Positions 5,580 to 35,800 of a stretch of DNA of 56,974 nucleotides are shown one piece after another (positions within the stretch are counted from its first letter, which is position 1; each line of letters starts with the position of its first letter). A program made the translations under genes and the position numbers. The notes below the pieces were generated by a model. The model did not search any database, had not been told where the DNA came from, and saw nothing but the letters and a program-made list of their open reading frames with translations. Source of the DNA: a virus (lineage: Duplodnaviria > Caudoviricetes); IMG/VR virus record IMGVR_UViG_3300044806_000037, positions 1 to 56,974 of that record; one strand, 5' to 3'.

Positions 5580-6320
5580 TTTTTCTCCTATGTTTAGTTG
5601 TTTGTTTTTATCGAGCCGTTGGGAGGCGAGCTCGTAGAGTCGCCTACCAAAGGCGTAACTACAGTTTTTGTTTTTTCTGTTGTTTCTGTTGTTTCTTTAT
5701 TAGCCAAGGCGGACCCCGGCCTTTAGGGGTCGACTTGGGCCTGGCTGTATTTGCTGAATACTGTATGTTTAATGCTGAATGCTGAATTCTAAATGCTGAT
5801 TGCTAATGTCACATTCTAAATTTTGTGATCTGTAGTGATGCTAAATGCTGCAGTATTATTTGTTGCTTTACACAGGTGCTTTTTTTGAAAAATATGCGGG
5901 GTTTTAGACGCAGGGCGGTGGTTTGAAAATTCTGCGCGGTTTTCATATTTAATTCCTAAAGTTTTGGTTTGGGTCTCTATCTGTATTATTTATATATATA
6001 TTATTATATATAATAATTAGATAGACTGGGAGATTTTCATTTTGTCCCTTTTCTCGATTGAATATGGTAAATTATACTCTTTTTCTCATTGTTTTTATCA
6101 TATTCAATTCCAATATCTAAACGCTACATCCGTAAACACTATTTATTTTCACTAATGAAATAGTATTTTTTTGAAGGAATAAAATAGTGTTTCTGGAAAT
6201 AGTGTGGGGTAGTGGTGGTTGAATATGGTAAAACTTATCATAAATAATTCTTTGACTATTTTGCGTTTTTTGCTTGACAAGCCTCTAAAAAGGACTAAAC
6301 TGGACTTATAACCAATCGAT
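5580..6320. promoter_or_regulatory. AT-rich divergent intergenic control region
   Basis: About 740 nt with no ORF between divergent operons; hairpins, an alternating-AT tract near 5990-6018 and repeated motifs. Confidence 0.7.
6274..6301 (+). promoter_or_regulatory. sigma70/SigA-type promoter
   Basis: TTGACA-16-TAAACT upstream of the first rightward gene. Confidence 0.7.
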
Positions 6321-10154: not shown

Positions 10155-10420
10155 TGTATTATGACCATGATGATGACAGTTTCTTGCGAGAGATTGATTT
10201 TGAAGCCTACCAGAGCGATGTTGACTGGGTAAAGGGTATTGTTGATGAAGTTGTGCCTATGACGGAGAACCTTGAGATTTCTTGTTGGCTTGCTGACAGC
10301 GAAACTGCTGAGTGCGGCGTTGAGGGTGGGCGTTTTGACAAGCCTGTGTATGAGAATGACCCTGACGAATTGTTCAAGGTTATCAAGCAGGCTTACCCTG
10401 AACTAAACTGGGAGGTCTAA
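10154..10420 (+). CDS. hypothetical acidic protein
   Basis: AAGGAG RBS; TAATG overlaps on both sides. Confidence 0.65.
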   Translation: MYYDHDDDSFLREIDFEAYQSDVDWVKGIVDEVVPMTENLEISCWLADSETAECGVEGGRFDKPVYENDPDELFKVIKQAYPELNWEV

Positions 10421-11817
10421 TGGAGCAGCCACTAATTCCGTATCAGTATCAACTCGCTGACATTGACAAGATTGTTGCTAATGGTGGTTCGGGTATTGTT
10501 GCTACACAGGTTGGTGGCGGTAAGACCCTTATTGCTATTGAAGTTGCGAAGAAGATGCGCTTTTCTAGCGTTTTGGTTATCGCCCCTAAGGGAACGCACA
10601 AGAGGGCTTGGGAGCGCACTATCAAACGCCAAGAACCTTTGGCTACTGTTCGTTACATCAATAGCACCAAAGATGGTAAGCAGGCTTACGCTGATTTGAT
10701 GTTGGGTCGCCCGGGTTGGTTTTTGATCAGTCCAGAGTTCTTCCGCAGGTTCAGTTGGTCTGCTTTCAAAAAGGTTGACATGGCTATTTTTGACGAGGCT
10801 CACCGAGCATCTAACCGCAAGGCTAAGACTGCTGTTGCTTTGCACTCTTTGAAGAGTGAGGCTCGTCTGGCTATGTCTGGGACGATTGCTGGTAACCGCA
10901 TTGATGGCATGTGGTCTATTTTGAAGTGGGTGTTCCCTGACTTGGCTGGCCGGTCTTACTGGGCTTGGGTTGGAAAATTCCTAAAAACCCGCGACGATTT
11001 TTTCGCGGGGAAGGTGCCTGATGGAGAAAAAAATCCTGGGGAAATTGTTGCAAGCATTCCTTGTTACATCCGTCACCTCAAGCGTGAGCAGTGCTGTCCG
11101 GAACACCCGGCCGGTATTGATGGCCAGTTGCCTGAGATGACAGTAGAGGAACGAGTTGTGCAGCTGTCGCCTGAGCAGAAAAAGATTTACAAACAGTTGG
11201 AAAAAGATTTGTTGGTCTGGCTTGGCGACAACCCTTTGGTTGTGGATGTTCCTGTGGCTATGCGTGTTCGCCTACGCCAAATTACTTTGGGTGTCCCGAC
11301 TGTCGCTGATGATGGGTCGATTGATTTCGATATCAACTGTCGTTCGTCTAAGTTTGACGAGCTGGGTGAAATCATTACGGACAGTCCTGTGGGTGAACAA
11401 ATGTTGGTGTTGACACACTCGCAAAAGTTTGCTAGGGTCGTAGTATCAAGGTTGCGTAACCTTGGGTATCAGGCTGAAGAGTGGTCTGGTGCTGTCACCC
11501 AGAAACGGCGTGACGAGATTTTGGAAACTTTCATCGAGGGCAAGGTTCAGTTCATTGTGGCTGTTATCTCTGCTATTGGTGAGGGAACGGACGGCTTGCA
11601 GGAGGCTTGTTCAACAGTTGTGTGGTTGTCTAAGGATGACAACAGGCTGATGAACGAGCAGGCCGCAGGTCGACTTGACAGGCGTGGTCAAAAGCGTAGT
11701 GTTGTTTCGTATGAGATTATTGCGGAGGACACTTATGACGAGGGCCAACTGTCTAAGTTAGTTCGTGAACAGTTAGCAATGAATGAATCATTGCGCGAAA
11801 AGGAGAATGGTAGATAA
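10420..11817 (+). CDS. superfamily 2 (SNF2-like) DNA helicase
   Basis: VGGGKT Walker A, DEAH, MSGT, EGTDGLQ and QAAGRLDRRGQ motifs. Confidence 0.92.
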   Translation: MEQPLIPYQYQLADIDKIVANGGSGIVATQVGGGKTLIAIEVAKKMRFSSVLVIAPKGTHKRAWERTIKRQEPLATVRYINSTKDGKQAYADLMLGRPGWFLISPEFFRRFSWSAFKKVDMAIFDEAHRASNRKAKTAVALHSLKSEARLAMSGTIAGNRIDGMWSILKWVFPDLAGRSYWAWVGKFLKTRDDFFAGKVPDGEKNPGEIVASIPCYIRHLKREQCCPEHPAGIDGQLPEMTVEERVVQLSPEQKKIYKQLEKDLLVWLGDNPLVVDVPVAMRVRLRQITLGVPTVADDGSIDFDINCRSSKFDELGEIITDSPVGEQMLVLTHSQKFARVVVSRLRNLGYQAEEWSGAVTQKRRDEILETFIEGKVQFIVAVISAIGEGTDGLQEACSTVVWLSKDDNRLMNEQAAGRLDRRGQKRSVVSYEIIAEDTYDEGQLSKLVREQLAMNESLREKENGR

Positions 11818-13138: not shown

Positions 13139-13202
13139 ACGACACATTAGCTTGTCACAAAAATGTGGGCAGGTTTACAGTAAAATAATATTAGGAGAGA
13201 TA

Positions 13203-13808: not shown

Positions 13809-14367
13809 AGTGACAGGTTTTGAACCAATATATAACCCAGTTAAACATGAGTTTATGGAAGAGGAAGATATGACTATAGAAGAACAATTTGCTGAAAAGC
13901 AAGCAGAGGCTCTGCTTAGAGTTGAAGCCCCTAAAAAGAAGAGCGCTAGACTAAACCCTGATGCTGTGCCAGTCCTGGCGACAGCTGTTGGTTTGGTTAG
14001 CATCCTGATGATTTCATCATTTGCAGTATCATTCACAGGCATTTATGAGGTGTCTGCGTGGACTGGGTTGCCAGTCAACTTGCAATGGTTACCGGCTTTG
14101 TTTATTGATGCCGCGATCCTTGCTTACACAATTTCATTGATCGTATTCAAGGCTCGTGGAGAGTCGGTTTGGAGGACTCTTGCGGGATTATCTGGTTTTG
14201 CTTTGGTATCAGTTGTTGCGAATATTGCTCATACCTTATCATTTTGGAATGGCAGTCTTGTTGACTTTCGTGCTTGGATTGGGGTTCTTATTACTGCTAG
14301 CGCTCCTATCGCTGTATTACTCGCTTCCGAAGAGATTACGAGATTGGCTTTTGAGGAACAGAAGTAG
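13795..14367 (+). CDS. multi-pass membrane protein, DUF2637-like
   Basis: About four hydrophobic helices; SFAVSF..WLPALFIDAAIL..SVVANIAH..APIAVLLASE. Confidence 0.7.
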   Translation: MLRNEVTGFEPIYNPVKHEFMEEEDMTIEEQFAEKQAEALLRVEAPKKKSARLNPDAVPVLATAVGLVSILMISSFAVSFTGIYEVSAWTGLPVNLQWLPALFIDAAILAYTISLIVFKARGESVWRTLAGLSGFALVSVVANIAHTLSFWNGSLVDFRAWIGVLITASAPIAVLLASEEITRLAFEEQK

Positions 14368-14702
14368 TGTCGAAGAGGCGAAAGCTTAACGATAGTCTCT
14401 ACCCAGACCTCGGGGTAAAACCTGAGGCGGTAGAGCCTCTAAATAAGTTTCTTGACAAGATGCTTGAATTAGAGGATAATGGACAAGTAAGGAAGTGCGG
14501 CGACGATTTCTGGTCATACACAGAGCAAGAAAATCTTACAGCGGATGATGCTGAAGAACTATGTTATGGCTGTCCGTTGCTAAAACTTTGTTACGATTAC
14601 GCAGTCGCTGACGAAATTAGTTGGGGAGTGTGGGGCGGAATTGACTTTTCGCCAGAAGATGATACACTATTTACATTAGGAGAAGAGGAGGACTACAAAT
14701 GA
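14367..14702 (+). CDS. whiB: WhiB-family Fe-S transcription factor
   Basis: C...AEELCYGCPLLKLC...WGVWGG. Confidence 0.88.
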   Translation: MSKRRKLNDSLYPDLGVKPEAVEPLNKFLDKMLELEDNGQVRKCGDDFWSYTEQENLTADDAEELCYGCPLLKLCYDYAVADEISWGVWGGIDFSPEDDTLFTLGEEEDYK

Positions 14703-15430: not shown

Positions 15431-15674
15431 CAAACAGCTCCCCACGCTGGGAAGATTGAGCATGACTTTCTGGGTTGCGGTAACACCCATAATTGTGCTA
15501 AGATTCCTAATAGCAGCTTTTCTTTTCAATGTTGGTCTCGATTTGACAGACGAAAAGAAAACGCTTATACTGGTAGGACTAGGTGTTTACTTCGGTATCG
15601 CCGGTGTAGTAACAACTTTCAGAGCAATTAAGAACCATTCCGCTCTGAGAGAACAACTAAAAGAAATGCTATAA
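15423..15674 (+). CDS. small two-TM membrane protein
   Basis: Two hydrophobic stretches; ATG 15423 overlaps the upstream stop. Confidence 0.6.
   Translation: MDNKQLPTLGRLSMTFWVAVTPIIVLRFLIAAFLFNVGLDLTDEKKTLILVGLGVYFGIAGVVTTFRAIKNHSALREQLKEML
15543..15571 (+). promoter_or_regulatory. near-consensus SigA promoter inside a CDS, upstream of the AAA/SSB/ncRNA unit
   Basis: TTGACA-17-TATACT. Confidence 0.6.
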
Positions 15675-17864: not shown

Positions 17865-20072
17865 ATGATGCAAGCAATAGATTTTTTTGAAACAGTCTTA
17901 GGCACTGGCGCAGGGTATGCGACAATCGTAACTAAGGATGGTAGTGGCAACCCTACAGTCCAAAAGTTTTTCAGCTACCCTGACGAGATCGATGCCATGG
18001 CTGCTTACGCAAAACAGTTTGAGAACGAGGACGTTTACTTCTCGCCAATCCTGTTTTATGAAACTCGCCGTATCCGCGAGAACGCTAAGAGCGTGTCCGC
18101 TGTGTATTCGGATGCTGACACTTGCGACCCAAAGAACTTCCGTCTACAGCCGTCAATCATTGTCAAGACTTCTGAGGGTCGTTGGCATGCATACTGGATT
18201 CTGGATGCTGAAGCTGACCCGCACCGCGTAGCAATGGCTAGCAAGCAGGTTGCTTACGGACACAAAGACCAAGGCTGTGACCTTTCAGGCTGGAACCCTA
18301 CCAAGCTTCTTCGTGTGCCTAACTCACGCAACACCAAGTATGGTGATGCACAGGTTGTAGAGGCAACTAACACTGGGCTTGTTTATAAGCTTGAAGAAGT
18401 TGAAGCAGCTTATGCTGACGTTAAAGTTGATGCAGTGCTAGAGCCGTCACTCGCGCCAATGCCGGAGATTACCCCAGACGTTATGGGCATTCTTGGCAAG
18501 ATCAAAAGCAATACGGAAGTGTTGTCTTTGTTCATGGACGAGCCTGGCCCGAACGCAGACTACTCTCGCATGCTTTGGAAGCTTGAGCTAGAACTCTTCC
18601 GTCAAGGTTTGACTATTGACGAAGTGTTTGCTGTCGCTAAACACGCTCGTTGTAACAAGTATCGTAGACCAGACCGCCCAAAGCGTTCTGACCCGGACGG
18701 CGACCTGTGGCGTGAGATTCAGCGCGCCCAGCAAACTTTCCAAGTGCCTGCCGAGGTTGAGAGTGTAGAACCAATCTACATTGATGATGTTCCTGTTGAG
18801 AAACCAATCAGTCTGCTCACTGATGAAGAGCGCGCTATTGTGTCGAACACAGAAACCTTTATCGACAGGTATGTGAACTGGGCTCGCAAGAAGACTGATG
18901 GTGCTGTCGAATACCAGATTGCTAGTGCGTTTACTTTACTTTCAACCTGTTTCTCGGACATTGGTTACGCTACGCCAAAGTATGGCAAGCTTGGTCTGAA
19001 CCTTTGGTTCATGCTGTTGGGTGAAACTACTCTGTCGCGTAAGTCAACTTCGCGCCAGCTAATGCTACGCACACTCCGTTCGTTTGAAAAGTTTGCTGGC
19101 TACCAGATCGATATCGGCTCTAACGTCACTGCTGAAGGTTTAGTAAAGCACTTGGCAGGTCGCGACAAGCTGACCTCGCTGTTCCACCGCGATGAAGTCC
19201 AGGGTATGTTTAAGGAGTTCGTGACCAAAACTTACATGGCCGCGGCTGCAGACCAGTTCACTGAACTTTACGACGGACATGTTCCTGTGGTTATTCGTGC
19301 CACTGGTGCGGCTTCTGGTGTCAAGGCTGTCCAGTCGGAACGAGCTGAAACAAACTTCCTAATGTATCTGATGGGTATCACTAGCAAGGTTGCTGAGATT
19401 CTAACTGTGGACTATTTCCGTTCCGGTTTCTTGGCTCGTTTCATTTATGTGATTGCTGATTCACCAGAGCGCACATTCGAGAGTGAAGCCATTGAGCAGT
19501 CTGCTGAAGTAGAAGTGCTTAAGCAGGATGACGAGATGGAAGCCATCGTGCGCACACTGTATGACAGCACTTTGTATTGGCAGAAGAAAGGTGCGCCTTT
19601 CCCACGCCCAGTCCGTATGACTGACGATGCGCTAGCTCGCTTCAACAAGTTCAAGTGGGACATGGGGAACTACTCCCAGGGCCACCCTAACGAAGAATCG
19701 ATTGAGCCATCGCGTCAGCGCCTAGCACTATCGATCTGGAAGTGTGCAGTGCTTATCGCAATGTATGACAAGTCTGATGAAGTGGAAGAGAAGCATGTCC
19801 TTGTGGCTGTTCACTATGCAGAGCAGTGGTTTAAGAACCTTGTTCGCATGGCTGACTCAATCTCGGCATCAGAGTGGCAACGTGAAGTTGATGAACTTGA
19901 AGCTCTACTTGTTACTAAGGGTGGACGTATGCGTTATGAAGACGCTTACAAGAAGTTCGGTAACAAGCGTAAGCGTGAGTTCGACGAAATGGTTGACGCA
20001 CTTAAATCACAGGGCCGCATGGTCGTTAGAACAGAGAACATGAGAAACTTTTTGGAGGTTACATCACGATGA
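17865..20072 (+). CDS. RepB-like (AEP) DNA primase fused to a DUF3987-like helicase domain
   Basis: YSDAD, KTSEGRWHAYW and LLRVPNSRNTK in the N-terminus; GETTLSRKST, TAEGL, RDEVQG and SGFLARF in the C-terminus. Confidence 0.8.
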   Translation: MMQAIDFFETVLGTGAGYATIVTKDGSGNPTVQKFFSYPDEIDAMAAYAKQFENEDVYFSPILFYETRRIRENAKSVSAVYSDADTCDPKNFRLQPSIIVKTSEGRWHAYWILDAEADPHRVAMASKQVAYGHKDQGCDLSGWNPTKLLRVPNSRNTKYGDAQVVEATNTGLVYKLEEVEAAYADVKVDAVLEPSLAPMPEITPDVMGILGKIKSNTEVLSLFMDEPGPNADYSRMLWKLELELFRQGLTIDEVFAVAKHARCNKYRRPDRPKRSDPDGDLWREIQRAQQTFQVPAEVESVEPIYIDDVPVEKPISLLTDEERAIVSNTETFIDRYVNWARKKTDGAVEYQIASAFTLLSTCFSDIGYATPKYGKLGLNLWFMLLGETTLSRKSTSRQLMLRTLRSFEKFAGYQIDIGSNVTAEGLVKHLAGRDKLTSLFHRDEVQGMFKEFVTKTYMAAAADQFTELYDGHVPVVIRATGAASGVKAVQSERAETNFLMYLMGITSKVAEILTVDYFRSGFLARFIYVIADSPERTFESEAIEQSAEVEVLKQDDEMEAIVRTLYDSTLYWQKKGAPFPRPVRMTDDALARFNKFKWDMGNYSQGHPNEESIEPSRQRLALSIWKCAVLIAMYDKSDEVEEKHVLVAVHYAEQWFKNLVRMADSISASEWQREVDELEALLVTKGGRMRYEDAYKKFGNKRKREFDEMVDALKSQGRMVVRTENMRNFLEVTSR

Positions 20073-20458
20073 ATTCAATACTAAATCTACAAGCAATTAA
20101 CCTGGCTATCTGGATTCGAGACAACGCTCTAAAGGTAGACCGCAATCTATTGATAGAGCAGATTCAGGCGCTCGCGGAATACGAGATCTTCTCGAACCGC
20201 CAGCTTGAAGCGATTTGCAAAAAGCGTGTAAGTTATGCTACCATCGGAGGATACACTCGCAAAAGCACTAAGAGCGGTGGCCGGCTAAATCCCGACACGC
20301 TTGAAGACTTGCGCGAAGTGTTGTTCCTGAAGCACAACGGACGTATCGCCTATAGCAATATCAAGAACGCTGTGGATAACGGAACTTCACAGAACATGGT
20401 CTCGCGGCTTACAGGCGTGGCCCAATCAACAATCAGTAAGCACTTTGGAGGAAACTAA
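20069..20458 (+). CDS. HTH DNA-binding protein
   Basis: GTSQNMVSRLTGVAQSTISK. Confidence 0.65.
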   Translation: MNSILNLQAINLAIWIRDNALKVDRNLLIEQIQALAEYEIFSNRQLEAICKKRVSYATIGGYTRKSTKSGGRLNPDTLEDLREVLFLKHNGRIAYSNIKNAVDNGTSQNMVSRLTGVAQSTISKHFGGN

Positions 20459-20700
20459 TGATTAAAATTTATACAAACCCTAACTGTGTCCAGTGCGACA
20501 TGACCAAGAAACAGTTTGACAAGCGCGGTATCGAATACGAGAGCATCGACCTGTCAACTGTGCCAGAACTTCTTGAGCAGTTTAAAGCTGAAGGCTACAT
20601 GGCTGCGCCTGTGGTTGTTACTAACCTTGTAACCTGGGCTGGCTTCAAGCCAGAGCTGATTAGCCAAGTTGCTCACCCAAGTTATAGAAGTAAGCTTTAA
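20458..20700 (+). CDS. nrdH: NrdH-like glutaredoxin
   Basis: IYTNPNCVQC..TKK..GI.Y...APVV...WAGFKP. Confidence 0.92.
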   Translation: MIKIYTNPNCVQCDMTKKQFDKRGIEYESIDLSTVPELLEQFKAEGYMAAPVVVTNLVTWAGFKPELISQVAHPSYRSKL

Positions 20701-21224
20701 TGTCTTTTGATATCAAGCAGGCTACATGCCTGAATGAAGACCCAGACATGTTCTTCTCGGACGATGAAGATGAACCGGACTGGGAGCTAATCAAGAAAGC
20801 CAAAGCCATATGCGCTTTGTGCCCAGTAATTGCAGACTGTTTGCAAATGGCTTACGAAGAAGAGGCTGACGGCATTTGGGGTGGCACAACAACTCGCGAG
20901 CGTAGGATTACTTTGAACAGGGAGATGCGAGGCTACGTGCCAATCCCTAGGACTGTTTCAGAAAATGCTAAGCAAGCTGTTGCGGCTGTTAATAAGGCTA
21001 AAACTATTGCAGTCTCAGATCGTGACAGAGAACTATTCCAGCAAGCGCTTGACATGTTTGACGACCTAGACGATTTGACTGAGATGCTGCTACAGTTAAG
21101 GATTAACAATCCTACACATTCGTTAGCAGACTTAGGCCAGGAACTAGACCCACCAATATCAAGAGATGTTGTTGCCGGTCGTTTAAGAAGAGTAAGAGAA
21201 AGGATGGAGAATGGAAAAGGATGA
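20700..21224 (+). CDS. whiB: WhiB domain fused to a WhiA-like C-terminal HTH
   Basis: N-terminus C..DPDMFF..AKAICALCPVIADC..GIWGGTT.RER; C-terminus LRINNPTHSLADLGQELDPPISRDVVAGRLRR. Confidence 0.82.
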   Translation: MSFDIKQATCLNEDPDMFFSDDEDEPDWELIKKAKAICALCPVIADCLQMAYEEEADGIWGGTTTRERRITLNREMRGYVPIPRTVSENAKQAVAAVNKAKTIAVSDRDRELFQQALDMFDDLDDLTEMLLQLRINNPTHSLADLGQELDPPISRDVVAGRLRRVRERMENGKG

Positions 21225-21435
21225 CGTATTTATAGACAGCACAAAAAACGGTATCTTTGAAAGTAAAGCAAAGTTTATTGATGTTGCACAGAGTCGATAT
21301 GCTTTAGATGCCCACTATCGAAGATACCTTAAAGGCGAGAAATATAGCCTAAGTAAGCAATGCTTTTTGCACATTGAAAAGCTTGCTAGCGAGGGCGTTG
21401 ACTGGGCTCAAAAGATCAAGGCAGGAACATTCTAA
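21211..21435 (+). CDS. hypothetical protein
   Basis: Coupled ORF. Confidence 0.6.
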   Translation: MEKDDVFIDSTKNGIFESKAKFIDVAQSRYALDAHYRRYLKGEKYSLSKQCFLHIEKLASEGVDWAQKIKAGTF

Positions 21436-21884
21436 TGACAACAATGTTATGTCTAGACCCTGGCGGAACTACCGGCCTAGCGGTCATGAGCTTTGAGCCA
21501 GAGCAAGAAGTCTCCCTCGTGCATTACGAACAAGTCCCTGGAGGGCTTGAAGGCTTTATTAGTTGGTATAAAAGCGAGCGAGAAATCTGGAACTGGGACA
21601 TGGTTGTGTGTGAAGACTTCACGCTACGCATGAACGTAAAGTTCCCAGACCTGTCCCCGGTCTATATTATTGGTGCGTTGGAAGCTTTTGAATGGCCTGA
21701 CAAGCCTACATACCAGCAACCAACACAGAAGCCTCTGTGTGATGATGATAGACTTAAAGTATTAGGTTTTCATAAGCCCGGCAAGGGACATGCAAACGAT
21801 GCCATAAGGCATGGGATAATTTATCTAAGGAAGAATAGGCACATGCCTACACTAAAGAAAGGATGGGCGATCAATGGGTTGTAA
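21435..21884 (+). CDS. RuvC-like Holliday junction resolvase
   Basis: LCLDPGGTTGLA, VVCEDF, HANDAIRH. Confidence 0.8.
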   Translation: MTTMLCLDPGGTTGLAVMSFEPEQEVSLVHYEQVPGGLEGFISWYKSEREIWNWDMVVCEDFTLRMNVKFPDLSPVYIIGALEAFEWPDKPTYQQPTQKPLCDDDRLKVLGFHKPGKGHANDAIRHGIIYLRKNRHMPTLKKGWAINGL

Positions 21885-23556: not shown

Positions 23557-23592
23557 AGAAAACCCCCAGCTAAACACTGGGGGTTTTCTCTT
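23555..23592. terminator. bidirectional intrinsic terminator between the convergent arms
   Basis: AGAAAACCCCCAG-CTAAACA-CTGGGGGTTTTCT. Confidence 0.85.
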
Positions 23593-23608
23593 GTCGGGCT
23601 CCGACCTA

Positions 23609-28977: not shown

Positions 28978-29870
28978 GCGCCTATCTCCTTAAGGTTCAC
29001 AGACATGTTGATAAGCCTGCGACCATCAATGATTCCGTTATATGTCATTGTCGGAGCTGTTGACATTACACAACCACTGAAACCTTCACCAGAAGTCCAA
29101 GGGTCAGAGGTAACAATTGGGGGGTGACCGTGGTTACCTGAAGCCGCAATTTTAGCCATGCCACCACGGATAGTAATAGTAGAACTTGTGTTGTCTGTTC
29201 TTGAAATGTAAACTCGAATCGCACGAACCCTGTTAGGGTTTCCTGTTTCGTTTGAGAACGTGTTGCTGTAACGGTTAACTCCGTTAGCCAGCAGTTCGGT
29301 CAAAACAATTGTGCTACCATCAGTTCCATCAGGCAAAACTTGAACTGCACGAATAGCGGCCGTTCCAGTTTTCTCGTAAACAAACCCAATGGTCAAAGTG
29401 TGCTCTTCCGGAATGAGTAGAGTTAGGGATCGTGAAGTTTCTGTAGTGTTTGTTACAGCATATTTTGCACTCTGGTAAGGGTAGCTGTTAGGGTTAGTGC
29501 TGTGAGTCACAGGTTCTGGCTTGTTACCTGAAGAGATCAGGCTAGGCCAGTCACGCACAGTAAGCATGGGGGCAGCCCAGTGCGGGGGTAGTATGTTATC
29601 GGCAAAGGGGTCTTCCCAATAGATTAACCCACCGCCATAGATTCCATCTTTGAAATCTTTAACAACTTGTAGGTCGGCGCGGTCCCCAACCCAAGACATG
29701 TCAAAGTTTCGTGCCGAACCGAAAGAAGCTTTAACAAACTGGCCACCGTTATTAAACTGTTGTTCTTCAGCAAAACCATTAGCGGACGCGCCCATACCGG
29801 CTAGCGGGGCTTTAATCCATCGTGCGTTTCGGGCGTTGCCGAACCAAACTTTGCCATCATAAACAGCCAT
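28968..29870 (-). CDS. minor tail (distal tail-like) protein
   Basis: Directly follows the tape measure gene. Confidence 0.6.
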   Translation of the reverse strand: MAVYDGKVWFGNARNARWIKAPLAGMGASANGFAEEQQFNNGGQFVKASFGSARNFDMSWVGDRADLQVVKDFKDGIYGGGLIYWEDPFADNILPPHWAAPMLTVRDWPSLISSGNKPEPVTHSTNPNSYPYQSAKYAVTNTTETSRSLTLLIPEEHTLTIGFVYEKTGTAAIRAVQVLPDGTDGSTIVLTELLANGVNRYSNTFSNETGNPNRVRAIRVYISRTDNTSSTITIRGGMAKIAASGNHGHPPIVTSDPWTSGEGFSGCVMSTAPTMTYNGIIDGRRLINMSVNLKEIGAWL

Positions 29871-32800
29871 TAGTTGCTTCCTCTCATTGCTAGTAGCATG
29901 TTACCTCGGTTGGCAGAGCTAGCAATCTGTCGGTCGTCGCTGTAAAGGTTTACAGGTCGGTTTGCGATTGCCATGATCTGCATAACTGCACTAGACGATA
30001 ATTCTACCACAGTTGTTCCACCAATTGCGCCAGCTGTTCCGATCATACCACCAGATGCGTAACGTGGGATTTGCATGTTGTTGATGGCGTTCATGAAGTC
30101 TAGGCCATAGTATTGCACAGCTGGTTGTGACTGGATGAATTCACCCGAGCGAATACCGATGATTCCGCCTGGACCACTTGCAAGCAAGTTGTCAACGCTT
30201 GGGTTTTGCGGTGACTTTCCGGGGATTAGACCACCAGCTGCGTAACCCTTGACTACGCCGCCGCCGAATGCTCCTGGGTTAACAATTTCAGCGTAGATAG
30301 GCTTGTTTTTGCTAGTTCCTGGAGCGGCCTTAAGCGATTCTTCGTAACGCCTTCTATCATTGTTTCTTTCGTTACGCAAGGTTTCCATAACCCCACCGCC
30401 AACAGCTTTATCCTTAATGTCTTTGGTTCCCTTTTTAGAGTCCTTGTCAAACATTGGGTTGACTGTTTCGGTGTAAGGGTTAAACTCTCCAGGGTATAGG
30501 CGAGCGTGTTCTTCGCCCAAAGCTTTGCGAGTCTTCTTGTTCTTTAGCGCATCAGCAAGCTTTTTGTCAACTGCCCCGGCTGGGTTTACTTGACCGTTGT
30601 AAGGGTTGTATTCTCCAGGGTGTATAGCGGCGTGAATTTGAGCCTGAGTCTTTAGTGTGACTATTCCCTTGTCGCTAACAATCTTGTTGGACTTTGGCCA
30701 AGGGTTAACCTTTCGGTTGAATGGGTTGTATTCGCCAGGGTATTGCTTAGCGTGTTGAGCGGCCGATTCTTTTAGGGCACTTGAGCCAAGGCCTACACTA
30801 GCATAGTCAGCTTCAATTTTAGTTGACTGAGCATCATTTGTAACGTTTTGGTTATACTTTTTCCACTCGTCACCAGTCTTTAATGCAGACTCTAGCTTGA
30901 AACCACTTAAAATATCTCTTGCATTTTGATCAACATTCCCCTCAACCCTCGAAGGATATGGGGTCGTGCTCTCTTGTCCCTTAATTGGTGGGTTGAACGT
31001 GCCGTTAAATGGATTCCAAGCGCCAGGGCTTGCCTTAGCATGCTTTTTAGCAAGTGCCTCAAGATCTTCTTCAGACGCACCTGATTGAATTGCAGATCTA
31101 CGAGTCGAACCAAGCTCCCACTGGCGAAGCCTGCCCTCGTATTCTTTGTTATAAGCTTTTGCTTTGTCTGTGTTGACAGTAACAAATTCTCTATTGTATT
31201 TTTCAGACTCTGCGATATCTTCAGCGGTTCCGCGTCCATTGTTTACAGCGTTTCCATCAAAAGCAGTTCTAGCAGCCCAGGCTGCTGGGTTTAGTATGTT
31301 TCCAATGTTACCCCAAAGGTCAGAAAAGGCTGCTAAAACAAGGTCGCCTTGACCCGCTTCCTTTTCAGGCCTAGACATTTCATTGTCAGCACTCCATTGC
31401 GGGGTTGACGGCTTTTTCCAAGTTGGCTTTTCAGGCTTACCATCAGGCGCGGAGCCTGGCCCGCCAGAGTTAGACGAGTTTTTCTTGCTAGATCCACCAC
31501 CACTGTTTTGCTTAACCTGCCATTCCATGAATGCGCGAGTTGCAGGATCCGCATCAACGCGAAGAGTAAGTTCCTTTGGAAGCTTGTCAACAATTGTGCG
31601 GAAGTCCTTGAATGACTTAGCGTAAGGATCCATTTCCTCTGCGGAGAATCCTAGAGCTTGGCCTTGGGCAAGCATGTCAGCCTTAGCTTCTTTTGCTCGC
31701 TTCTTCAATTCCTTCTGAGACAAGTTGGTGTTAGCAAGTGATTCAAGATACTTGTTGTAATCCTGAACAAGCCCACGCATAACAGCACGGTTATCTGCGG
31801 CTGCTTTAGTATTACCTACAAGACTGGTGCTTGCACTGTCCTGAGCAGTTCCAAGTTCTTTATTCTTATCAGCAATCTCTTTGTCTTTAGCTTCAAGTTC
31901 TGCACGAAGCTTGTCGGCTCGCATGTTGTCGCCATACTTGAGGGCAATGTTAAGTTGGTATTCAAGGATGTTGCGGTCTGCACCCATAGCCTTGATTTCA
32001 TCTTGAATCTTTTCAATTGCTTTACGAGCGTCATCAACACGGTTCTTTACGTTTTCCCATGAAGCCGCTAGTGCATCTGTGGCTTCTTCCTTACCGTAGC
32101 GAATTGTGAAAGCGGCGCTAAGGATTGAAGACAGGTCGCCAACATAGTCAGTTAGCGTATAAACTCGTGCGATTGTGTTGTCTAGCTCGTTATTAAGGTC
32201 GCCAGCGCCATCATCAGCTACACCCATTGAAGCTCCAAGGGCCTTCATGATCTTAGAGTTTTCAACGCCGGACTTAGTTGTGCCATCTAGGGCATAAGCT
32301 ATATTTGAGAGGTCTTGATAAAGGTTTGGCGCTACAGCCCTTAGCTCAGCTGAGCTAGTAAACCAGCCTTCAAGGTATTCAGATGCGCCCTTACCTGGAT
32401 CTTGAAGGGCCATGCCAACCATGTCTTGAAGGCTAATGTTAGCCTGTTTAGCTAGCTTGTCAAGGTCTTGACCCATGTTGAAGTAGCGTTTAAACATCTC
32501 TTGAATCTGGTCGTCACCCATAGCGGCTTGGGCTAGCCATTCCATTGAGTTAGCACCAAGGGCAAGGGTTTGCTCGGTAATGCTGTCAGTTGTTTCAGTA
32601 ATAGCGTTTGTTAGTTTTGCGGATGAACCTGTGGTTGCCTCCATTGACTGCGCCCAAGTAGTTAGCTCAGTCTTAGAGGTTGTAACCTTGCTTTGAACAG
32701 TTCCAATGGCTTCGCCATTTTCTTTCCAAGCCGCGGTGTCCTTGTAGATTGCTTCGCGGAATGAGTCTAGTCCGCCACCGGCTTCCATTAGGTCGATCTG

Positions 32801-35800
32801 GAAAGACTTGTAAATTTCGCTTGCTGTGGCAATTAGAGTAAGAATTAGACCAATAGCCCCAGCTGCTTTAGTAGCGAATCCAACAGCTTTACCAAACCTG
32901 GTGGTGGCAACGCTACCCTTGTCAGCTTCTGTAGCAACGCTGTCAAGGCCAGCACCCATCTCGTCAAGCGAGGCTGTGCTCTGTTCAACGCCAGCAGTAA
33001 CTTCGGCTGGCACGATATCTTCTGGCTTAATTGTTGGGGTGTTCAGAGAAGAAAGATTTTCATCTAAGCCTTTCTCTAGGCTGTCAAGCCTGTTAAGTTC
33101 ACGAGTGCTAGCAGCGGATTGAGCCGCAGCCGCTTCAGCAGCGGCGGCATCGCCCTGAGCCAATGCATAAATGCGTAGCTTCTCTGAAGACTCAAGAGAA
33201 GCCTGAGAAAGCTCTCGCCTAATTTGAATAAGCTGCTTGTTAACAAGAATCTGCTCTTGCACTTGCGCCACCGTTGGGCCTTGGCTTGCAAGGTTTGGCA
33301 AAACAGCTCCAGGGGTTTCGCTTAGCGGTCCAAGCGTAAGCCCATTCTTAGCAGCAATTTCTGCATCCATAGATCCAGGAGTTGCGGCTTTACGCACATC
33401 AACTCCGGCCTTCAAAGCTCGATCTACAGGGCTTCCCTCAGGAACAATTTTGCCAAGTTCTTTCATCTCTTCAAGGCGGTCTTTAGTGATTGAGCGTAGT
33501 CTACCGTTTGAGTCGATAATCATTCGCTCTTGACCTGTTAGCACATCTAATAGTCCCTTGACGCCGGTGTTCTCTCCACCCATCTTGCCAAGCTGAACCA
33601 TAGCAGTTTTCATAGCTAGAGTTGCTGCTGTAGCCTTGTAGGTTACAACCTGGTAGGCAACAAATCCTGCTACTAAAGCGGTTAAACCTGCCGCAATGCC
33701 AGTGATAACTTTACCAATTGGGCTTGCAGTAAGTTTATTAATAAACTCCATAGCCCCACTCATTATATCCAGTAGCATCTTTAAGCCAGGAGCAAAAGCT
33801 TCACCGAAGTTATCCTGAAGGATCTTCAACTGGTTGTTTAGAATTTCAAGCTTGGCACCAACATTGTCTTGAGTCTTAGCGTAAGCTTCACCTAAGAATG
33901 TTCCGTTGGCGTAAGACTCTTGAGCATCAGACATGGACTGGTTGTAAACGTCCATGTTCTTAGCCAAACGCTGAAGCGTGTTAACTTCACGAGTCTCAAC
34001 AATGTTTAGCTTGTCAAGTGCTGTTGTCATGCTTCCAGCTTTAGACAAGTTCTCAAGCATGCGCTGGAAGAAAGCTTGTGGGTCAGTTTCCCAAAGTGAC
34101 TTGGTTTCCTTAGCAGTTAGGCCAAGGTGCTTAGAGTAAGCTGTAAGTTCTTTACCACCGTTTTGCATTCCACGCTCAATGTCGCCAAAGAGTCGCACAA
34201 TAACACCGCGAGCCTGTTCAGGGGCAATACCTAGCGAGGAGATCGCGGTAGCTAGACCGATAGTTTCGTCAGCACCAAAGCCAGCAAGGTTTGTTGCAGC
34301 CGCAATAGACTCTGTAAGAGTAATAATTTCTTGGTCGGTTGCTACAGCATTAATACCAGCGAAAGCTACAGCTGAAGCAAGCTTGTTGAAGTCATCCGCT
34401 GGGATATCGGCTAGCTGGCTAATTCGACCAAACTTTTCAGCAACAGTGTCAGCGGACATTCCGGTAATGGATGAATACTTTACGACCTGTTCGGTGAAGT
34501 TGTTGATACCATCGGCGTTAATACCCATCTGCCCACCAAGGGTTGCAATCTTTGCAAGCTGGTCAAACGCTACAGGTAGCTCTTGTGTCATTAGCACAAG
34601 GCGTTGACGCATGCCATCGAGTTCGTCTGGTAGTGGCTGCATTACGCGTTCTACAGCTGTGAAGGATGTTTCGTATGAAGCGTTGACCATAACAGCTTGA
34701 CGGATGTATGAGGTTAGAACGTTTAGCTTCTTGCCCATGTCTTCGTAAGTGCTGGCAACGTCGTATAGTGAGTAGCGGGTTGAGATCCAGCTGTCAACCA
34801 TTTTGCGGTTAGCGTCAGCAACAACCTTTTCGTGTGCCTGAACAGCTTTGTTCATTCCCTTAAGGTCATTGGCGTGGCGTTTAGCTCTTAGCTCACTTTG
34901 CTCAATCTCCTGGTCAATCCAAGCCTGGTGCTGGTTTCCAGTGATCTTTCCATCCATGAGATCCTGATACTCAGGAGTTGGACTGTCAGGGCCACCAGGA
35001 ATGTCGTCTGGTGGGCGAGGGCCAGGAGGCCTACCTCCACCACCATTGCCTCCACCTGGAGGGCGAGGGCCCCGAGGCGTAGGTGTGCGCTCACCGGTCT
35101 CAACTTTAATTTCGTTGATCTTACGGTTTACACGGTCGATAGCTTTCTGGATTGCGTCAGCAAGTTCACGAGAAGCCTTACCTAGTGTTGCTGTGAAACG
35201 CTCTGGAACCTTACCCCAACGCGAAGCAATCTGACGTTCAACCTCAGCAAAAAGCTCTGGGTTCTTTTTAGCCTCATCAACGATAGCATTATTCTTTGCA
35301 AGTCTAGCTTTATCCTTGTCCTGAATTACGCGGTTGTTGATTGGCGAGTTAGTAAGATTGTCGAAACCGATTCCGCGGTTTTCCGACATTGCTTCAATAA
35401 CTTTTTCAGCTTCATAAAGTTGCTTTAGTCGTTCACGCTCAAGCTTGATACGCTGCTTTTCAACTTCACGTTGTTCTTCAAGTTTGGCAAGTTCTTCTTC
35501 AAGGATGCGCATTCTTTCCGCATCGTTCATCGCTGAATCTACATCAACAGTTTCATCGTCAAACAGTGTTGGCTGAGCTGGGATTGGTTGAGCCGATGGG
35601 GCGCGTCTTGGAACACTTGGCACAGAAGGTTGCAGTTCCCCAGTGTGCACAGCTGACTGGCGGTTGTAGCTGTCGAGAACCTTAGGGTCTCTGTAATCCT
35701 TCTTTGGGTCACCCTTGCCGGCACCGAAGCGGCGGAATCCGCCAATAGCATCCGAAACAGTTGTCCAAGAAGCTTTAACGAAATCGGTTACAGCTTTTGT

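What the first reader, a model, noticed from the sequence alone, without database searches (positions are those of the whole stretch)
20700..21224. WhiB-WhiA single-chain fusion
Seen: a full four-Cys WhiB domain, followed by QQALDMF..LQLRINNPTHSLADLGQELDPPISRDVVAGRLRR, which closely follows the actinobacterial WhiA C-terminal HTH pattern as I recall it (AL..L....LR..H..ASL.ELG...DPP.TKD.VAGR.RR). Established: WhiA and WhiB/WhiB2 co-regulate division genes; the WhiA HTH reads GACAC and WhiB contacts sigma region 4; the WhiB of phage TM4 blocks septation. Inference: one protein replaces the two-factor complex, either hijacking the host division regulon or activating phage promoters. A GACAC lies at 13141, upstream of a TAAAAT -10 at 13181. 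A second, ordinary WhiB is at 14367.
Basis: partly seen in the sequence, partly recalled or inferred. Interest (0 to 1): 0.8.

Follow-up and report, generated by a model that had tools for sequence, protein, structure and literature searches.

The report
Phage WhiB fused to WhiA DNA-reader
A complete freshwater actinobacterial phage encodes one 174-residue protein that joins a WhiB iron-sulfur, sigma-factor-binding module to the DNA-reading end of WhiA, two parts that normally sit in separate bacterial proteins which together switch on cell-division genes.

Summary
ORF 20700-21224 (+, 174 aa) scores above Pfam's curated cut-offs for both Whib (66.2 bits, residues 6-69) and HTH_WhiA (42.2 bits, residues 96-167).

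A profile of the C-terminal half hits S. venezuelae WhiA at E 1.2e-19. The best non-WhiA chain, a sigma-E region 4, scores E 0.25, so this is not a generic HTH.

A confident model (pLDDT 94.3) superposes residues 3-77 on WhiB1 and residues 88-171 on WhiA 219-303, its long helix plus HTH. WhiA's homing-endonuclease domain is absent.

The five WhiA residues shown by mutagenesis to matter for DNA binding are kept, with one K-to-R change.

The fusion is a conserved family. At least 57 clusters at 50% identity carry it, and 59 of 60 sampled members carry both domains. I found it on viral contigs, not in 401 sampled Actinomycetota genomes, and not in 50,697 phage records.

The most likely function is a one-chain, sigma-A-tethered, sequence-specific transcription factor. 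Its targets are unknown.

I found no paper that describes the fusion. The scan noted the same fusion before on other DNA (e1-6021818, e1-5997158).

The parts
20700..21224 (+). Gene for the 174-aa WhiB-WhiA(long helix + HTH) fusion protein
   Evidence: ORF. Both Pfam domains score above their cut-offs. 9 homologous clusters at 50-100% identity, 170-182 aa, share the same N-terminus and both domains.
20715..20906 (+). WhiB (Wbl) domain, residues 6-69: four Cys (C10, C38, C41, C47), aromatic patch F18/F19/W60, GIWGG turn
   Evidence: Pfam Whib 66.2 bits. PDB WhiB1 E 1.2e-10 and S. venezuelae WhiB E 1e-7. Model residues 3-77 align to WhiB1 6ono_C at Z 11.5, rmsd 1.9 A over 73 residues. Across 60 family members: 4 Cys in 60/60, F18 in 59/60, W60 in 58/60.
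20907..20960 (+). Linker, residues 70-87, between the last WhiB helix and the WhiA-type long helix. Invariant N73, R74, Y79, V80, P81, P83 in the close subfamily.
   Evidence: Secondary structure of the model. Invariant columns in A1. Lowest pLDDT block of the model, 78 for residues 81-90.
20961..21056 (+). WhiA-type long helix (LH), residues 88-119
   Evidence: Helix 88-119 in the model. Model 88-171 aligns to S. venezuelae WhiA 8dy9_I 219-303 at Z 11.2, rmsd 2.4 A over 84 residues, and to Thermotoga WhiA 205-292 at Z 10.9. N98 is conserved in at least 90% of 60 members. By the offset of the structural alignment it falls at WhiA N229, a DNA-contacting LH residue; this mapping is my inference.
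21072..21215 (+). WhiA-type helix-turn-helix, residues 125-172, with recognition helix SRDVVAGRLRR
   Evidence: Pfam HTH_WhiA 42.2 bits. The alignment to 8dy9_I 245-298 maps WhiA R266/L274/K287/R293/R295 to R134/L142/R155/R161/R163, all invariant in A1. Those five residues were shown by mutagenesis to matter.
20458..20700 (+). Glutaredoxin/NrdH-like gene directly upstream; its stop overlaps the fusion's start (TAATG)
   Evidence: Pfam Glutaredoxin 43.2 bits. PHROG thioredoxin domain. Overlap seen. Same adjacency in L002; in L003 the homologue lies about 8 kb away.
14367..14702 (+). Second, stand-alone WhiB-like gene (111 aa), the ancestral WhiB slot of this phage lineage
   Evidence: Pfam Whib 36.4 bits. 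4 Cys. Syntenic with the WhiB-like gene of Arthrobacter phage Amigo, upstream of the exonuclease. 87% identical in L002.
15543..15571 (+). Nearest strong sigma-70-like promoter upstream on the same strand (TTGACA-17-TATACT). Possible start of the operon that holds the fusion.
   Evidence: 11 of 12 consensus matches. No comparable site lies directly before the fusion gene. Operon membership is inferred.
23557..23608 (.). GC-rich hairpin with flanking A/T runs between the convergent rightward and leftward gene arms; likely terminator of the rightward arm
   Evidence: Sequence AAAACCCCCAG...CTGGGGGTTTTCT read directly. Not listed by the terminator scan.
13141..13145 (+).
   Evidence: Present but chance-level and not conserved in L002.

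Best explanation
The gene encodes a one-chain transcription factor built from two parts.

The N-terminal part is a [4Fe-4S] WhiB-like domain. It docks on region 4 of the host's primary sigma factor (sigma-A) in RNA polymerase.

The C-terminal part was taken from an actinobacterial whiA gene. It consists of the long helix and the sigma-4-like helix-turn-helix that, in WhiA, reads the GACAC motif upstream of the -35 element.

In bacteria the homing-endonuclease-like N-terminal domain of WhiA is the adaptor that holds this reading head onto WhiB. In the phage protein a covalent linker of about 18 residues does that job.

The gene sits in the rightward replication and recombination arm. The protein would therefore be made before the structural genes. 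It would steer sigma-A holoenzyme to a small set of promoters, phage or host, that carry a WhiA-type upstream element, without needing the host's own WhiA or its tightly regulated WhiB.

Shown here: the two domains, their boundaries, the conserved cluster ligands, the sigma-binding aromatic residues, the DNA-contact residues, and conservation across a diverse family found on viral contigs.

Inferred: sigma-A binding, DNA specificity, activation rather than repression, and the identity of the targets.
For: Domains:
- Pfam Whib 66.2 bits and HTH_WhiA 42.2 bits, both above cut-off.
- One protein matches both chain H (WhiB) and chain I (WhiA) of the S. venezuelae RNAP-WhiA-WhiB entries 8dy7 and 8dy9.
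- The profile of the C-terminal half gives WhiA E 1.2e-19, Thermotoga WhiA 2.2e-6, and the best sigma region 4 only 0.25.

Structure:
- Model at pLDDT 94.3.
- Residues 3-77 align to WhiB1 at Z 11.5. Residues 88-171 align to WhiA 219-303 at Z 11.2. Generic HTH and sigma-4 chains reach Z 7.5 or less and cover only about residues 115-174.

Functional residues:
- WhiA R266, L274, K287, R293 and R295 are required in vivo. They map to R134, L142, R155, R161 and R163.
- Across 60 family members these positions are 54R+6K, 41L, 47K+13R, 33R+15K and 52R+3K.
- Aromatic-patch residues AP2-4, which mediate sigma-A4 binding in Wbls, are F18 (59/60), F19 (56/60 plus 4 Y) and W60 (58/60). All four Cys are present in 60/60.
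- Three of three randomly chosen phage Wbls bound sigma-A4 in that paper.

Selection:
- The fused form recurs in 53 single-stretch plus 4 two-stretch representatives among the best 150 of an exhaustive search.
- 59 of 60 members carry both Pfam domains.
- The distance from the WGG turn to the HTH is 60-103 residues in 58 of 60 members.

Context:
- Early or replication and nucleotide-metabolism genes flank it in the window, L002, L003 and L083.
[quoted passage not shown] This is what a covalent fusion would make dispensable.
Against: No binding site was found.
- GACAC is not enriched in the phage: 83 against 109.5 expected, and 5 intergenic against 5.8 expected.
- There is no exact GACACGCC.
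- None of the 12 consensus-like promoters listed has an upstream GACAC box.
- No dispersed word is over-represented (maximum z 3.8).

The fusion lacks the WhiA N-terminal domain. In S. venezuelae that domain's beta'-dock contacts and its R177/R185 DNA contacts are needed for activation.

The WhiB half resembles WhiB1 more than the WhiA-partner class, and it has an acidic loop where S. venezuelae WhiB has its DNA loop.

The base-contacting Lys is Arg in this subfamily (13 of 60 members), so the motif read may differ.

Host, cluster binding, sigma binding and expression timing are all untested. RNA-library contigs of a relative touched only the last 44 bases of the gene.
Confidence: 0.7

Rival explanations
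1. Dominant-negative decoy. The protein occupies sigma-A region 4 (displacing host Wbl proteins) and WhiA-type DNA sites. Because it lacks the WhiA N-terminal domain, it cannot complete activation. It would therefore shut down the host WhiA/WhiB cell-division regulon, as the WhiB of mycobacteriophage TM4 shuts down whiB2.
For: - In S. venezuelae the WhiA-NTD contact with the beta'-dock (K21E/Q98A/Q115A) and the NTD residues R177/R185 are required for activation. The fusion has none of this domain: TIGR00647 scores 25.1 bits against a 44.1 cut-off and matches only model positions 227-301.
- WhiB of TM4 is reported as a dominant negative regulator of whiB2 that causes the whiB2-depletion phenotype (passages read).
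- No GACAC-bearing promoter was found in the phage itself, which fits a host target.
Against: - Tethering a DNA-reading head to sigma-A is in itself a recruitment device. Recruitment alone activates in many systems (established knowledge; for example CAP class I as described).
- WhiB7 activates with only a Wbl domain plus a short DNA hook.
- The TM4 mechanism, as reviewed, is competition of apo-WhiBTM4 with apo-WhiB2 at the whiB2 promoter. It needs no WhiA head, so it does not explain why the head is conserved in 59 of 60 members.
Confidence: 0.2
2. The C-terminal half is a generic sigma-70 region-4/ECF-type HTH, so the protein is a Wbl with an unrelated DNA-binding tail (comparable to WblP, a Wbl-ECF sigma fusion) and has no tie to WhiA.
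For: - WhiA-CTD and sigma region 4 share a fold.
- Sigma-4 and Lrp-type HTH chains align to residues about 115-174 at Z 6-7.5.
- 1 of 60 family members also scores for Sigma70_r4.
- A Wbl-ECF sigma fusion (WblP) is known.
Against: - HTH_WhiA scores above Pfam's curated cut-off, and does so in 59 of 60 members, with a best E of 5.4e-28.
- Profile against PDB: WhiA 1.2e-19 against sigma-E region 4 at 0.25.
- The structural match to WhiA spans 84 residues including the long helix, at Z 11.2. Generic HTHs lack that helix.
- The TKD-x-VAGR-x-RR recognition helix of WhiA is kept nearly letter for letter.
Confidence: 0.03
3. Artefact: two adjacent genes (a phage whiB and a captured whiA fragment) joined by an assembly or frameshift error, or a decaying pseudogene.
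For: The window is a metagenome-assembled virus record.
Against: - The same uninterrupted architecture occurs in 9 clusters at 50-100% identity from several sources and in 57 representatives at 50% clustering.
- It occurs on independent viral contigs L002, L003, L082 and L083.
- A contig of an independent DNA run spans the whole gene (run X5, record 9).
- Functional residues are conserved in both halves.
Confidence: 0.01

Closest known systems
WhiA + WhiB co-activator pair of Actinobacteria (S. venezuelae RNAP-sigmaA-WhiA-WhiB-sepX complex, PDB 8DY7/8DY9; Lilic et al. 2023, PMC10243135; sections 5, 7-10, 12-14 and 17 read)
   Same: - A Wbl Fe-S domain with the sigma-A4-binding aromatic patch.
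- The WhiA long helix and HTH, with the mutagenesis-validated DNA-contact residues.
- The query hits both chains of the same PDB entry.
   Different: - One polypeptide instead of two.
- The whole LAGLIDADG homing-endonuclease-like WhiA N-terminal domain is missing. That domain provides the WhiB interface, the beta'-dock/omega contacts and R177/R185.
- The Wbl half is closer to WhiB1 than to WhiB/WhiB2, and it has an acidic loop in place of the K37-K45 DNA loop.
- K287 is Arg here.
- It is phage-borne.
WhiB7 (Wbl with a C-terminal AT-hook; PDB 7KIF/7KUF)
   Same: A single-chain Wbl that binds sigma-A4 and carries its own DNA-reading element, which binds just upstream of the -35 and activates transcription (as described).
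   Different: WhiB7's DNA element is a short AT-hook in the minor groove. Here it is an 85-residue helix plus HTH taken from WhiA, which reads the major groove. WhiB7 scores lower against the query (E 7.2e-5; Z 7.8).
[quoted passage not shown]
   Same: A Wbl domain covalently fused to a sigma-type DNA-reading module, carried on a mobile element.
   Different: The partner is a whole ECF sigma factor, not the WhiA head. I did not examine WblP's sequence here.
WhiB of mycobacteriophage TM4 (Rybniker et al. 2010; original paper not read, known from passages in PMC8612146 and PMC6282962)
   Same: A phage-encoded Wbl that interferes with the host cell-division regulator network.
   Different: TM4's protein is a stand-alone Wbl similar to WhiB2. 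It has no WhiA-type domain.
Database records of family members: 'Sporulation regulator WhiA, C-terminal [uncultured Caudovirales phage]' (CAB4148957.1) and 'DNA-binding protein WhiA [Pseudolysinimonas sp.]' (WP_449056040.1)
   Same: Members of the same fused family (P0009, 50% identical to the window's protein; P0065).
   Different: The names are automatic. They mention only one half and do not recognise the fusion.

Membership tests
Wbl / WhiB-like (Pfam PF02467) | Profile score above the curated cut-off | tested here: met
   66.2 bits against 23.6, residues 6-69.
Wbl / WhiB-like (Pfam PF02467) | Four conserved Cys that ligate the [4Fe-4S] cluster, and the G[IV]WGG turn | tested here: met
   C10, C38, C41, C47 and G58-I-W-G-G62 are present. 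The Cys are conserved in 60/60 family members, and W60 in 58/60.
Wbl / WhiB-like (Pfam PF02467) | Aromatic patch for sigma-A region 4 binding (AP2-3 = WhiB1 F17/F18; AP4 = W60; PMC13013590) | tested here: met
   F18, F19 and W60 align with WhiB1 F17, F18 and W60. Conserved in 59, 56 (+4 Y) and 58 of 60 members.
Wbl / WhiB-like (Pfam PF02467) | Actual [4Fe-4S] loading and binding to sigma-A | not testable with these tools
   Needs protein biochemistry. I did not run complex prediction, because a pass for a textbook pair would not have changed my odds.
Class II Wbl (WhiB / WhiB2, the WhiA partner) | Basic minor-groove loop (S. venezuelae K37-K45) and closest similarity to WhiB/WhiB2 | tested here: not met
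   - The loop here is 5 residues longer and acidic (SDDEDEPDWELIKKAK, net charge -4).
- The best solved relative is WhiB1 (44.8 bits) against S. venezuelae WhiB (35.2 bits).
- Z values are tied: 11.5 for WhiB1, 10.4 for S. venezuelae WhiB.
- No Wbl phylogeny was built.
WhiA (NCBIfam TIGR00647, full-length DNA-binding protein WhiA) | N-terminal LAGLIDADG homing-endonuclease-like domain; equivalog score above cut-off | tested here: not met
   25.1 bits against 44.1. Only model positions 227-301 of 304 are matched. The protein has 174 aa and no residues left for such a domain.
WhiA C-terminal domain (Pfam PF02650 HTH_WhiA) | Profile score above the curated cut-off | tested here: met
   42.2 bits against 27, residues 96-167. 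59 of 60 family members match at E <= 1e-3.
WhiA C-terminal domain (Pfam PF02650 HTH_WhiA) | Long helix plus three-helix HTH fold as in solved WhiA | tested here: met
   Model 88-171 aligns to 8dy9_I 219-303 at Z 11.2, rmsd 2.4 A over 84 residues. 3hyi gives Z 10.9 over 86 residues.
WhiA C-terminal domain (Pfam PF02650 HTH_WhiA) | DNA-contact residues R266, L274, K287, R293, R295 (Lilic 2023) | tested here: met
   They map to R134, L142, R155 (K to R), R161 and R163. All are invariant in A1.
WhiA C-terminal domain (Pfam PF02650 HTH_WhiA) | Binds the GACAC motif | tested here: inconclusive
   Binding itself is not testable here. As a proxy, GACAC is not enriched in the window. No GACAC box sits at its TTGACA promoters. 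Observed/expected in five fused loci is 0.40-1.21, against a median of 0.59 in 78 WhiB-only viral loci.

The most novel reading that the evidence does not exclude
The fusion is a phage 'sigma appropriation' device, a minimal one-chain WhiAB.

It clamps a sigma-4-like reading head onto host sigma-A through an Fe-S domain. That gives RNA polymerase a second, phage-chosen upstream promoter element. It bypasses both host WhiA and the developmentally gated host WhiB.

It would also show in nature that WhiA's homing-endonuclease domain is only an adaptor.

The family is widespread in uncultured aquatic actinophages. It evolves much faster than its neighbours: 59% identity against 88-95% between the window and L002. 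This could reflect an arms race or retargeting between phage lineages.
Probability: 0.4. Interest if true: 0.8.

Novelty: new variant of a known kind. Interest (0 to 1): 0.68.

Why it matters
WhiA and WhiB are essential cell-division regulators of Actinobacteria. How they cooperate was only resolved structurally in 2023.

A natural protein that keeps WhiB and the WhiA reading head but deletes the adaptor domain between them is a ready-made test of that model. It asks whether tethering is all the N-terminal domain does, and whether the beta'-dock contact is really needed. At 174 residues it is also a compact system for biochemistry.

For phage biology, it adds a new way in which actinophages may redirect or sabotage host sigma-A transcription.

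It also shows that 'whiB-encoding actinophage' counts hide at least two functionally different kinds of gene.

For annotation, family members are currently named as WhiA, as 'WhiA C-terminal', or as a WhiB family regulator. Each of these names describes only half of the protein.

Tried and rejected
Searching for the target site:
- GACAC count against shuffles and its intergenic share.
- GACACGCC with up to 1 mismatch: 28 against 32.3 expected, 0 exact.
- GACAC 12-30 nt or 5-45 nt upstream of TTGAC. Only scattered intragenic hits turned up.
- Upstream regions of the three TAAGGTATAAT sites on the late arm share no motif.
- A word over-representation scan for k = 7-10 gave a maximum z of 3.8.
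- None of these gave a candidate site.
- Observed/expected GACAC in fused against WhiB-only viral loci is mixed and rests on a crude order-1 model. I draw no conclusion from it.

Expression:
- RNA-library run X20 (contigs of a 90-95% relative) covers parts of the stretch, but only the last 44 bases of the fusion gene (record 2, 21181-21402).
- Run X21 laid nothing.
- Contigs cannot show transcription, and DNA may be present in such libraries. This is no evidence either way.

Host:
- The nearest cultured phages infect Arthrobacter and Microbacterium, at only 38-45% identity.
- Runs that hold the DNA are labelled freshwater or aquatic metagenomes (four of them may be the source itself).
- I did not name a host.

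Donor of the WhiA part:
- The search for homologous proteins on residues 88-174 among longer proteins found nothing. This is weak evidence, because the index is word-based.

Cellular occurrence:
- The genome-contig scan with P0065 gave 16 loci, none of them fused. L085 is an ordinary 359-aa Bifidobacterium WhiA.
- 401 evenly drawn Actinomycetota genomes gave 4 matches at E <= 1e-15, all covering the WhiB part only. The fused form was not found in those searched; it is not shown absent.
- P0065 itself is on record under a Pseudolysinimonas assembly, so at least one member lies in a cellular assembly. It could be a prophage or a binned phage contig; I did not examine it.

First structure model:
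- The model from 9 sequences (pLDDT 62.9) was too poor for the WhiB half. I replaced it with the 60-sequence model.

Supplementary files of Lilic 2023 (Dataset S1, Fig. S4: the WhiB residues that touch the WhiA-NTD) and of PMC13013590 (the Wbl subfamily table) were not available. They could settle which Wbl subfamily the N-terminal half belongs to.

Rows dropped:
- A2 holds 60 sequences: P0001, P0006 and P0009, the 53 single-stretch full-length hits, and 4 two-stretch hits from the 150 listed.
- Left out were six close relatives (P0002-5, P0007, P0008), WhiB-only hits, P0016 (a repeat artefact), tandem-WhiB proteins (P0048, P0053, P0069), P0066 and P0081 (diverged tails matching only to profile position about 148), P0108 and P0128.
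Full report
**What is there**

The window is a complete virus record of 56,974 bases with direct terminal repeats. The repeat is 127 bases long.

ORF 20700..21224 on the + strand encodes 174 residues from an ATG. That ATG overlaps the stop codon of the preceding gene (TAATG).

Pfam finds two domains, both above their curated cut-offs:
- Whib: residues 6-69, E 3.9e-18, 66.2 bits against a cut-off of 23.6.
- HTH_WhiA: residues 96-167, E 1.1e-10, 42.2 bits against a cut-off of 27.

NCBIfam's full-length WhiA equivalog scores only 25.1 bits against 44.1, and matches only its last 75 model positions. PHROGs recognises only the WhiB half.

Against the Protein Data Bank the protein hits both chain H (WhiB, E 1e-7) and chain I (WhiA, E 1.4e-3 to 1.7e-3) of the S. 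venezuelae RNA polymerase-WhiA-WhiB entries 8dy7 and 8dy9. WhiB1 is the best Wbl hit at E 1.2e-10.

**Is the C-terminal half really WhiA-like?**

I built a profile from the C-terminal parts of ten diverse family members (A3). Against the PDB it gives:
- S. venezuelae WhiA residues 240-305: E 1.2e-19.
- Thermotoga WhiA: E 2.2e-6.
- The best non-WhiA chain, an E. coli sigma-E region 4: E 0.25.

The pairwise alignment to 8dy9_I lets the residues studied by Lilic et al. (PMC10243135, section 17) be mapped:

| S. venezuelae WhiA | Role | Phage protein |
|---|---|---|
| R266 | backbone contact | R134 |
| L274 | positions K287 | L142 |
| R293 | DNA contact | R161 |
| R295 | DNA contact | R163 |

All five positions are invariant among the nine close homologues. 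The paper notes that the equivalent of K287 in Thermus sigma-A region 4 is itself an Arg.

**Structure**

A first model from 9 sequences was poor (pLDDT 62.9). A model from a 60-sequence family alignment is confident (pLDDT 94.3, pTM 0.60). It shows a WhiB-type helical core (to residue 76), a non-helical linker (77-87), one long helix (88-119) and a three-helix HTH (125-172).

VIA-align gives these superpositions:
- Residues 3-77 on WhiB1 (6ono_C): Z 11.5, rmsd 1.9 A over 73 residues.
- Residues 88-171 on S. venezuelae WhiA residues 219-303: Z 11.2, rmsd 2.4 A over 84 residues.
- Residues 85-173 on Thermotoga WhiA residues 205-292: Z 10.9.

Generic HTH and sigma region-4 chains reach only Z 6-7.5 and cover only about residues 115-174.

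So the phage protein contains what Lilic et al. call the WhiA long helix (LH) together with the HTH. [quoted passage not shown] That N-terminal domain is simply not there.

N98 is conserved in at least 90% of 60 family members. By the offset of the structural alignment it falls at WhiA N229, one of the LH residues that touch DNA. This last mapping is my inference.

**A family, not a one-off**

The word-indexed search found 9 clusters at 50-100% identity and 170-182 aa, all with both Pfam domains on record. One is in NCBI as 'Sporulation regulator WhiA, C-terminal [uncultured Caudovirales phage]'.

The exhaustive profile search over 1.84 billion representatives gave 27,201 hits at E <= 1e-3, mostly plain WhiB. 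Of the 150 best listed, I counted 53 that match the profile in one stretch across both halves (159-288 aa), and four more that do so in two stretches.

I aligned these 57 with three of the close clusters into A2 (60 sequences). Scanned one by one against Pfam, 60 of 60 have Whib and 59 of 60 have HTH_WhiA, with a best E of 5.4e-28.

Conservation across the 60:

| Feature | Conservation |
|---|---|
| Four Cys | 60/60 |
| F18 | 59/60 |
| F19 | 56/60, plus 4 Tyr |
| W60 | 58/60 |
| R266 position | 54 R + 6 K |
| L274 position | 41 L |
| K287 position | 47 K + 13 R |
| R293 position | 33 R + 15 K |
| R295 position | 52 R + 3 K |
| Distance from WGG turn to HTH | 60-103 residues in 58 of 60 |

The aromatic residues are those shown to mediate sigma-A region 4 binding in Wbl proteins. 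In that study, three of three randomly chosen phage Wbls bound sigma-A4 (PMC13013590, passages read).

**Where it occurs**

- Viral contigs: of 80 loci picked for a WhiB like this one, only 2 (L002, L003) carry the WhiA part. A scan keyed to the recognition helix found two more, L082 and L083, each 198 aa.
- GenBank phage collection: none of 608 records with a WhiB match covers 80% of the query. The C-terminal half alone hits only 2 of 50,697 records. Both are ordinary full-length WhiA ORFs (311 and 313 aa, no WhiB domain) on 'UNVERIFIED' fecal scaffolds.
- Cellular genomes: in 401 evenly drawn Actinomycetota genomes, no match spanned both halves. A scan of 185,579 species genomes with the high-GC member P0065 returned no fused locus.
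- One exception on record: P0065 is filed under a Pseudolysinimonas assembly, as 'DNA-binding protein WhiA'.

**Context**

The gene lies near the end of the rightward arm. That arm holds:
- a helicase (10420-11817);
- a stand-alone WhiB (14367-14702);
- a PDDEXK exonuclease;
- an AAA_24/Sak4-like protein;
- an SSB-like protein;
- two tRNAs (Thr, Asn);
- a DUF3987 primase (17865-20072);
- a small DNA-binding protein;
- a glutaredoxin (20458-20700);
- the fusion;
- a 74-aa ORF;
- a 149-aa ORF (21435-21884) in a PHROG of unknown function, whose position matches RuvC in Amigo and whose N-terminus looks RuvC-like to me (my reading; Pfam found nothing);
- an exonuclease.

The nearest cultured phages are Arthrobacter phages such as Amigo (terminase 44.8%, primase 38% identity). 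Amigo has the same order: WhiB-like, exonuclease, Sak4, SSB, tRNAs, primase ... RuvC. It has no fusion. So the 14367 gene is the lineage's old WhiB, and the fusion is an added gene. The two WhiB domains are only 37% identical over 30 residues.

In L083 the fusion sits directly before the helicase. In L003 it sits among thymidylate synthase, dNMP kinase and a serine recombinase.

The nearest strong consensus promoter on the strand is at 15543 (TTGACA-17-TATACT). None lies directly before the gene.

**Targets**

- GACAC occurs 83 times against 109.5 +/- 10.6 expected. There are 5 copies in intergenic DNA against 5.8 expected.
- The copy at 13141 is not conserved in the close relative L002.
Here there is no exact GACACGCC.
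- None of the twelve consensus-like promoters has a GACAC box within 60 nt upstream of its -35 hexamer.
- No dispersed word is over-represented.

So either this phage has few sites, or the Arg-type head reads something else, or the targets are in the host. Host targets could not be tested, because the host is unknown.

**Mechanism**

In the solved complex, WhiB sits on sigma-A region 4. The WhiA N-terminal domain binds WhiB. The LH and HTH reach the GACAC motif upstream. [quoted passage not shown]

A covalent WhiB-LH-HTH chain is the simplest way to do without that adaptor. I think it most likely (0.7) that the protein is a sigma-A-tethered, sequence-specific transcription factor.

Whether it activates is less sure. 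In S. venezuelae the N-terminal domain's contact with the beta'-dock is required for activation, and the fusion lacks it. A dominant-negative role against the host division regulon, in the manner reported for TM4's WhiB, is the main rival (0.2).

The WhiB half is also not clearly of the WhiA-partner class. It is WhiB1-like by sequence score. It carries an acidic, longer loop where S. venezuelae WhiB has its basic DNA loop K37-K45. It does keep the equivalents of the C-terminal DNA-contact residues S75, R77, E78 and R80, as T64, R66, E67 and R69.

**Novelty**

I found no paper that describes the architecture. Searches:
- 'WhiB' + 'HTH_WhiA': 0 papers.
- WhiB + WhiA + fusion + phage: 14 papers, none on this by title or abstract.
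- WhiB + WhiA + fused + metagenom*: 2 papers, unrelated.
- Actinobacteriophage + WhiB + WhiA: 3 papers.

Papers checked:
- The survey of WhiB in actinobacteriophage genomes (PMC8612146) does not contain the word WhiA.
- The 995-sequence Wbl survey (PMC13013590) does not contain 'fusion'.
- The COBRA preprint notes clades with several whiB copies. Its five whiB passages do not mention a fusion, and the search counted no occurrence of 'WhiA' in it.
- The Wbl review mentions only WblP, a Wbl-ECF sigma fusion.

Public records name family members after one half only. The same fusion was noted earlier by this scan in other genomes.

I class it as a new variant of a known kind: two known, functionally coupled families in a new single-chain architecture on phages.

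**Side observation bearing on function**

Between the window and its close relative L002, neighbouring proteins are 88-95% identical. The fusion is only 58.7% identical and the glutaredoxin 77.5%.

Contigs of an independent run skip or replace 20596-21250. One also switches to another allele inside the gene, at 21117.

The gene is therefore a local hot spot of divergence or allele exchange.

Noticed in passing
window 20458-21224 compared with L002 9759-10513: Local divergence hot spot. Between the window and its syntenic relative L002 the flanking proteins are 88-95% identical, but the fusion is 58.7% and the glutaredoxin 77.5%. Contigs of an independent freshwater run skip or replace 20596-21250, or change allele at 21117. 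This suggests allele swapping or fast evolution of the regulator.
   Followed up: partly
proteins P0076, P0128, P0108, P0048/P0053/P0069: Other architectures appear among the hits:
- P0076 (288 aa): WhiB followed by two WhiA-type HTH units.
- P0128 (368 aa): two WhiA-type HTH units and no visible WhiB.
- P0108 (603 aa): WhiB domains flanking what looks like a sigma-70 core.
- Several proteins with tandem WhiB domains.
These were read from the sequences and from the table only.
   Followed up: no
window 6274, 6517, 7659 (+ strand): Three rightward promoter-like sites share TTGACA-N16/17-TAAACT. The first two have TGGTAAAA about 47 nt upstream of the -35 hexamer, and TTGAATATGGTAAA occurs twice in 5580-6319. 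This may be an early-promoter family with its own upstream element.
   Followed up: no
It is not conserved in L002.
   Followed up: partly
78 WhiB-bearing viral loci L004-L081: GACAC is generally under-represented in these actinophage loci relative to an order-1 expectation: median observed/expected 0.59, range 0.27-1.07. This could be avoidance of host WhiA sites or only a composition effect. The model is crude.
   Followed up: no
P0065 / WP_449056040.1; CAB4148957.1: Family members are on record as 'DNA-binding protein WhiA [Pseudolysinimonas sp.]' (226 aa) and 'Sporulation regulator WhiA, C-terminal [uncultured Caudovirales phage]'. Others are named 'WhiB family redox-sensing transcriptional regulator'. 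Each name describes half of the protein.
   Followed up: partly
L105 (MT836517.1) and L106 (MT839584.1): Two 'UNVERIFIED: Bacteriophage sp.' scaffolds from fecal samples encode full-length WhiA-type proteins (313 and 311 aa, 42.5% GC). They are probably bacterial DNA, or phages carrying a whole whiA.
   Followed up: partly
window 29870-40744 (- strand): A single ORF of 3,624 aa lies in the structural arm. Its C-terminal 348 residues match L002 at 58%. Another note of the scan reads it as a giant tape measure.
   Followed up: no
window 24165, 45060, 47458 (- strand): TAAGGTATAAT occurs three times, each 6-9 nt before a start codon region on the late arm. The upstream 70 nt share no motif.
   Followed up: partly
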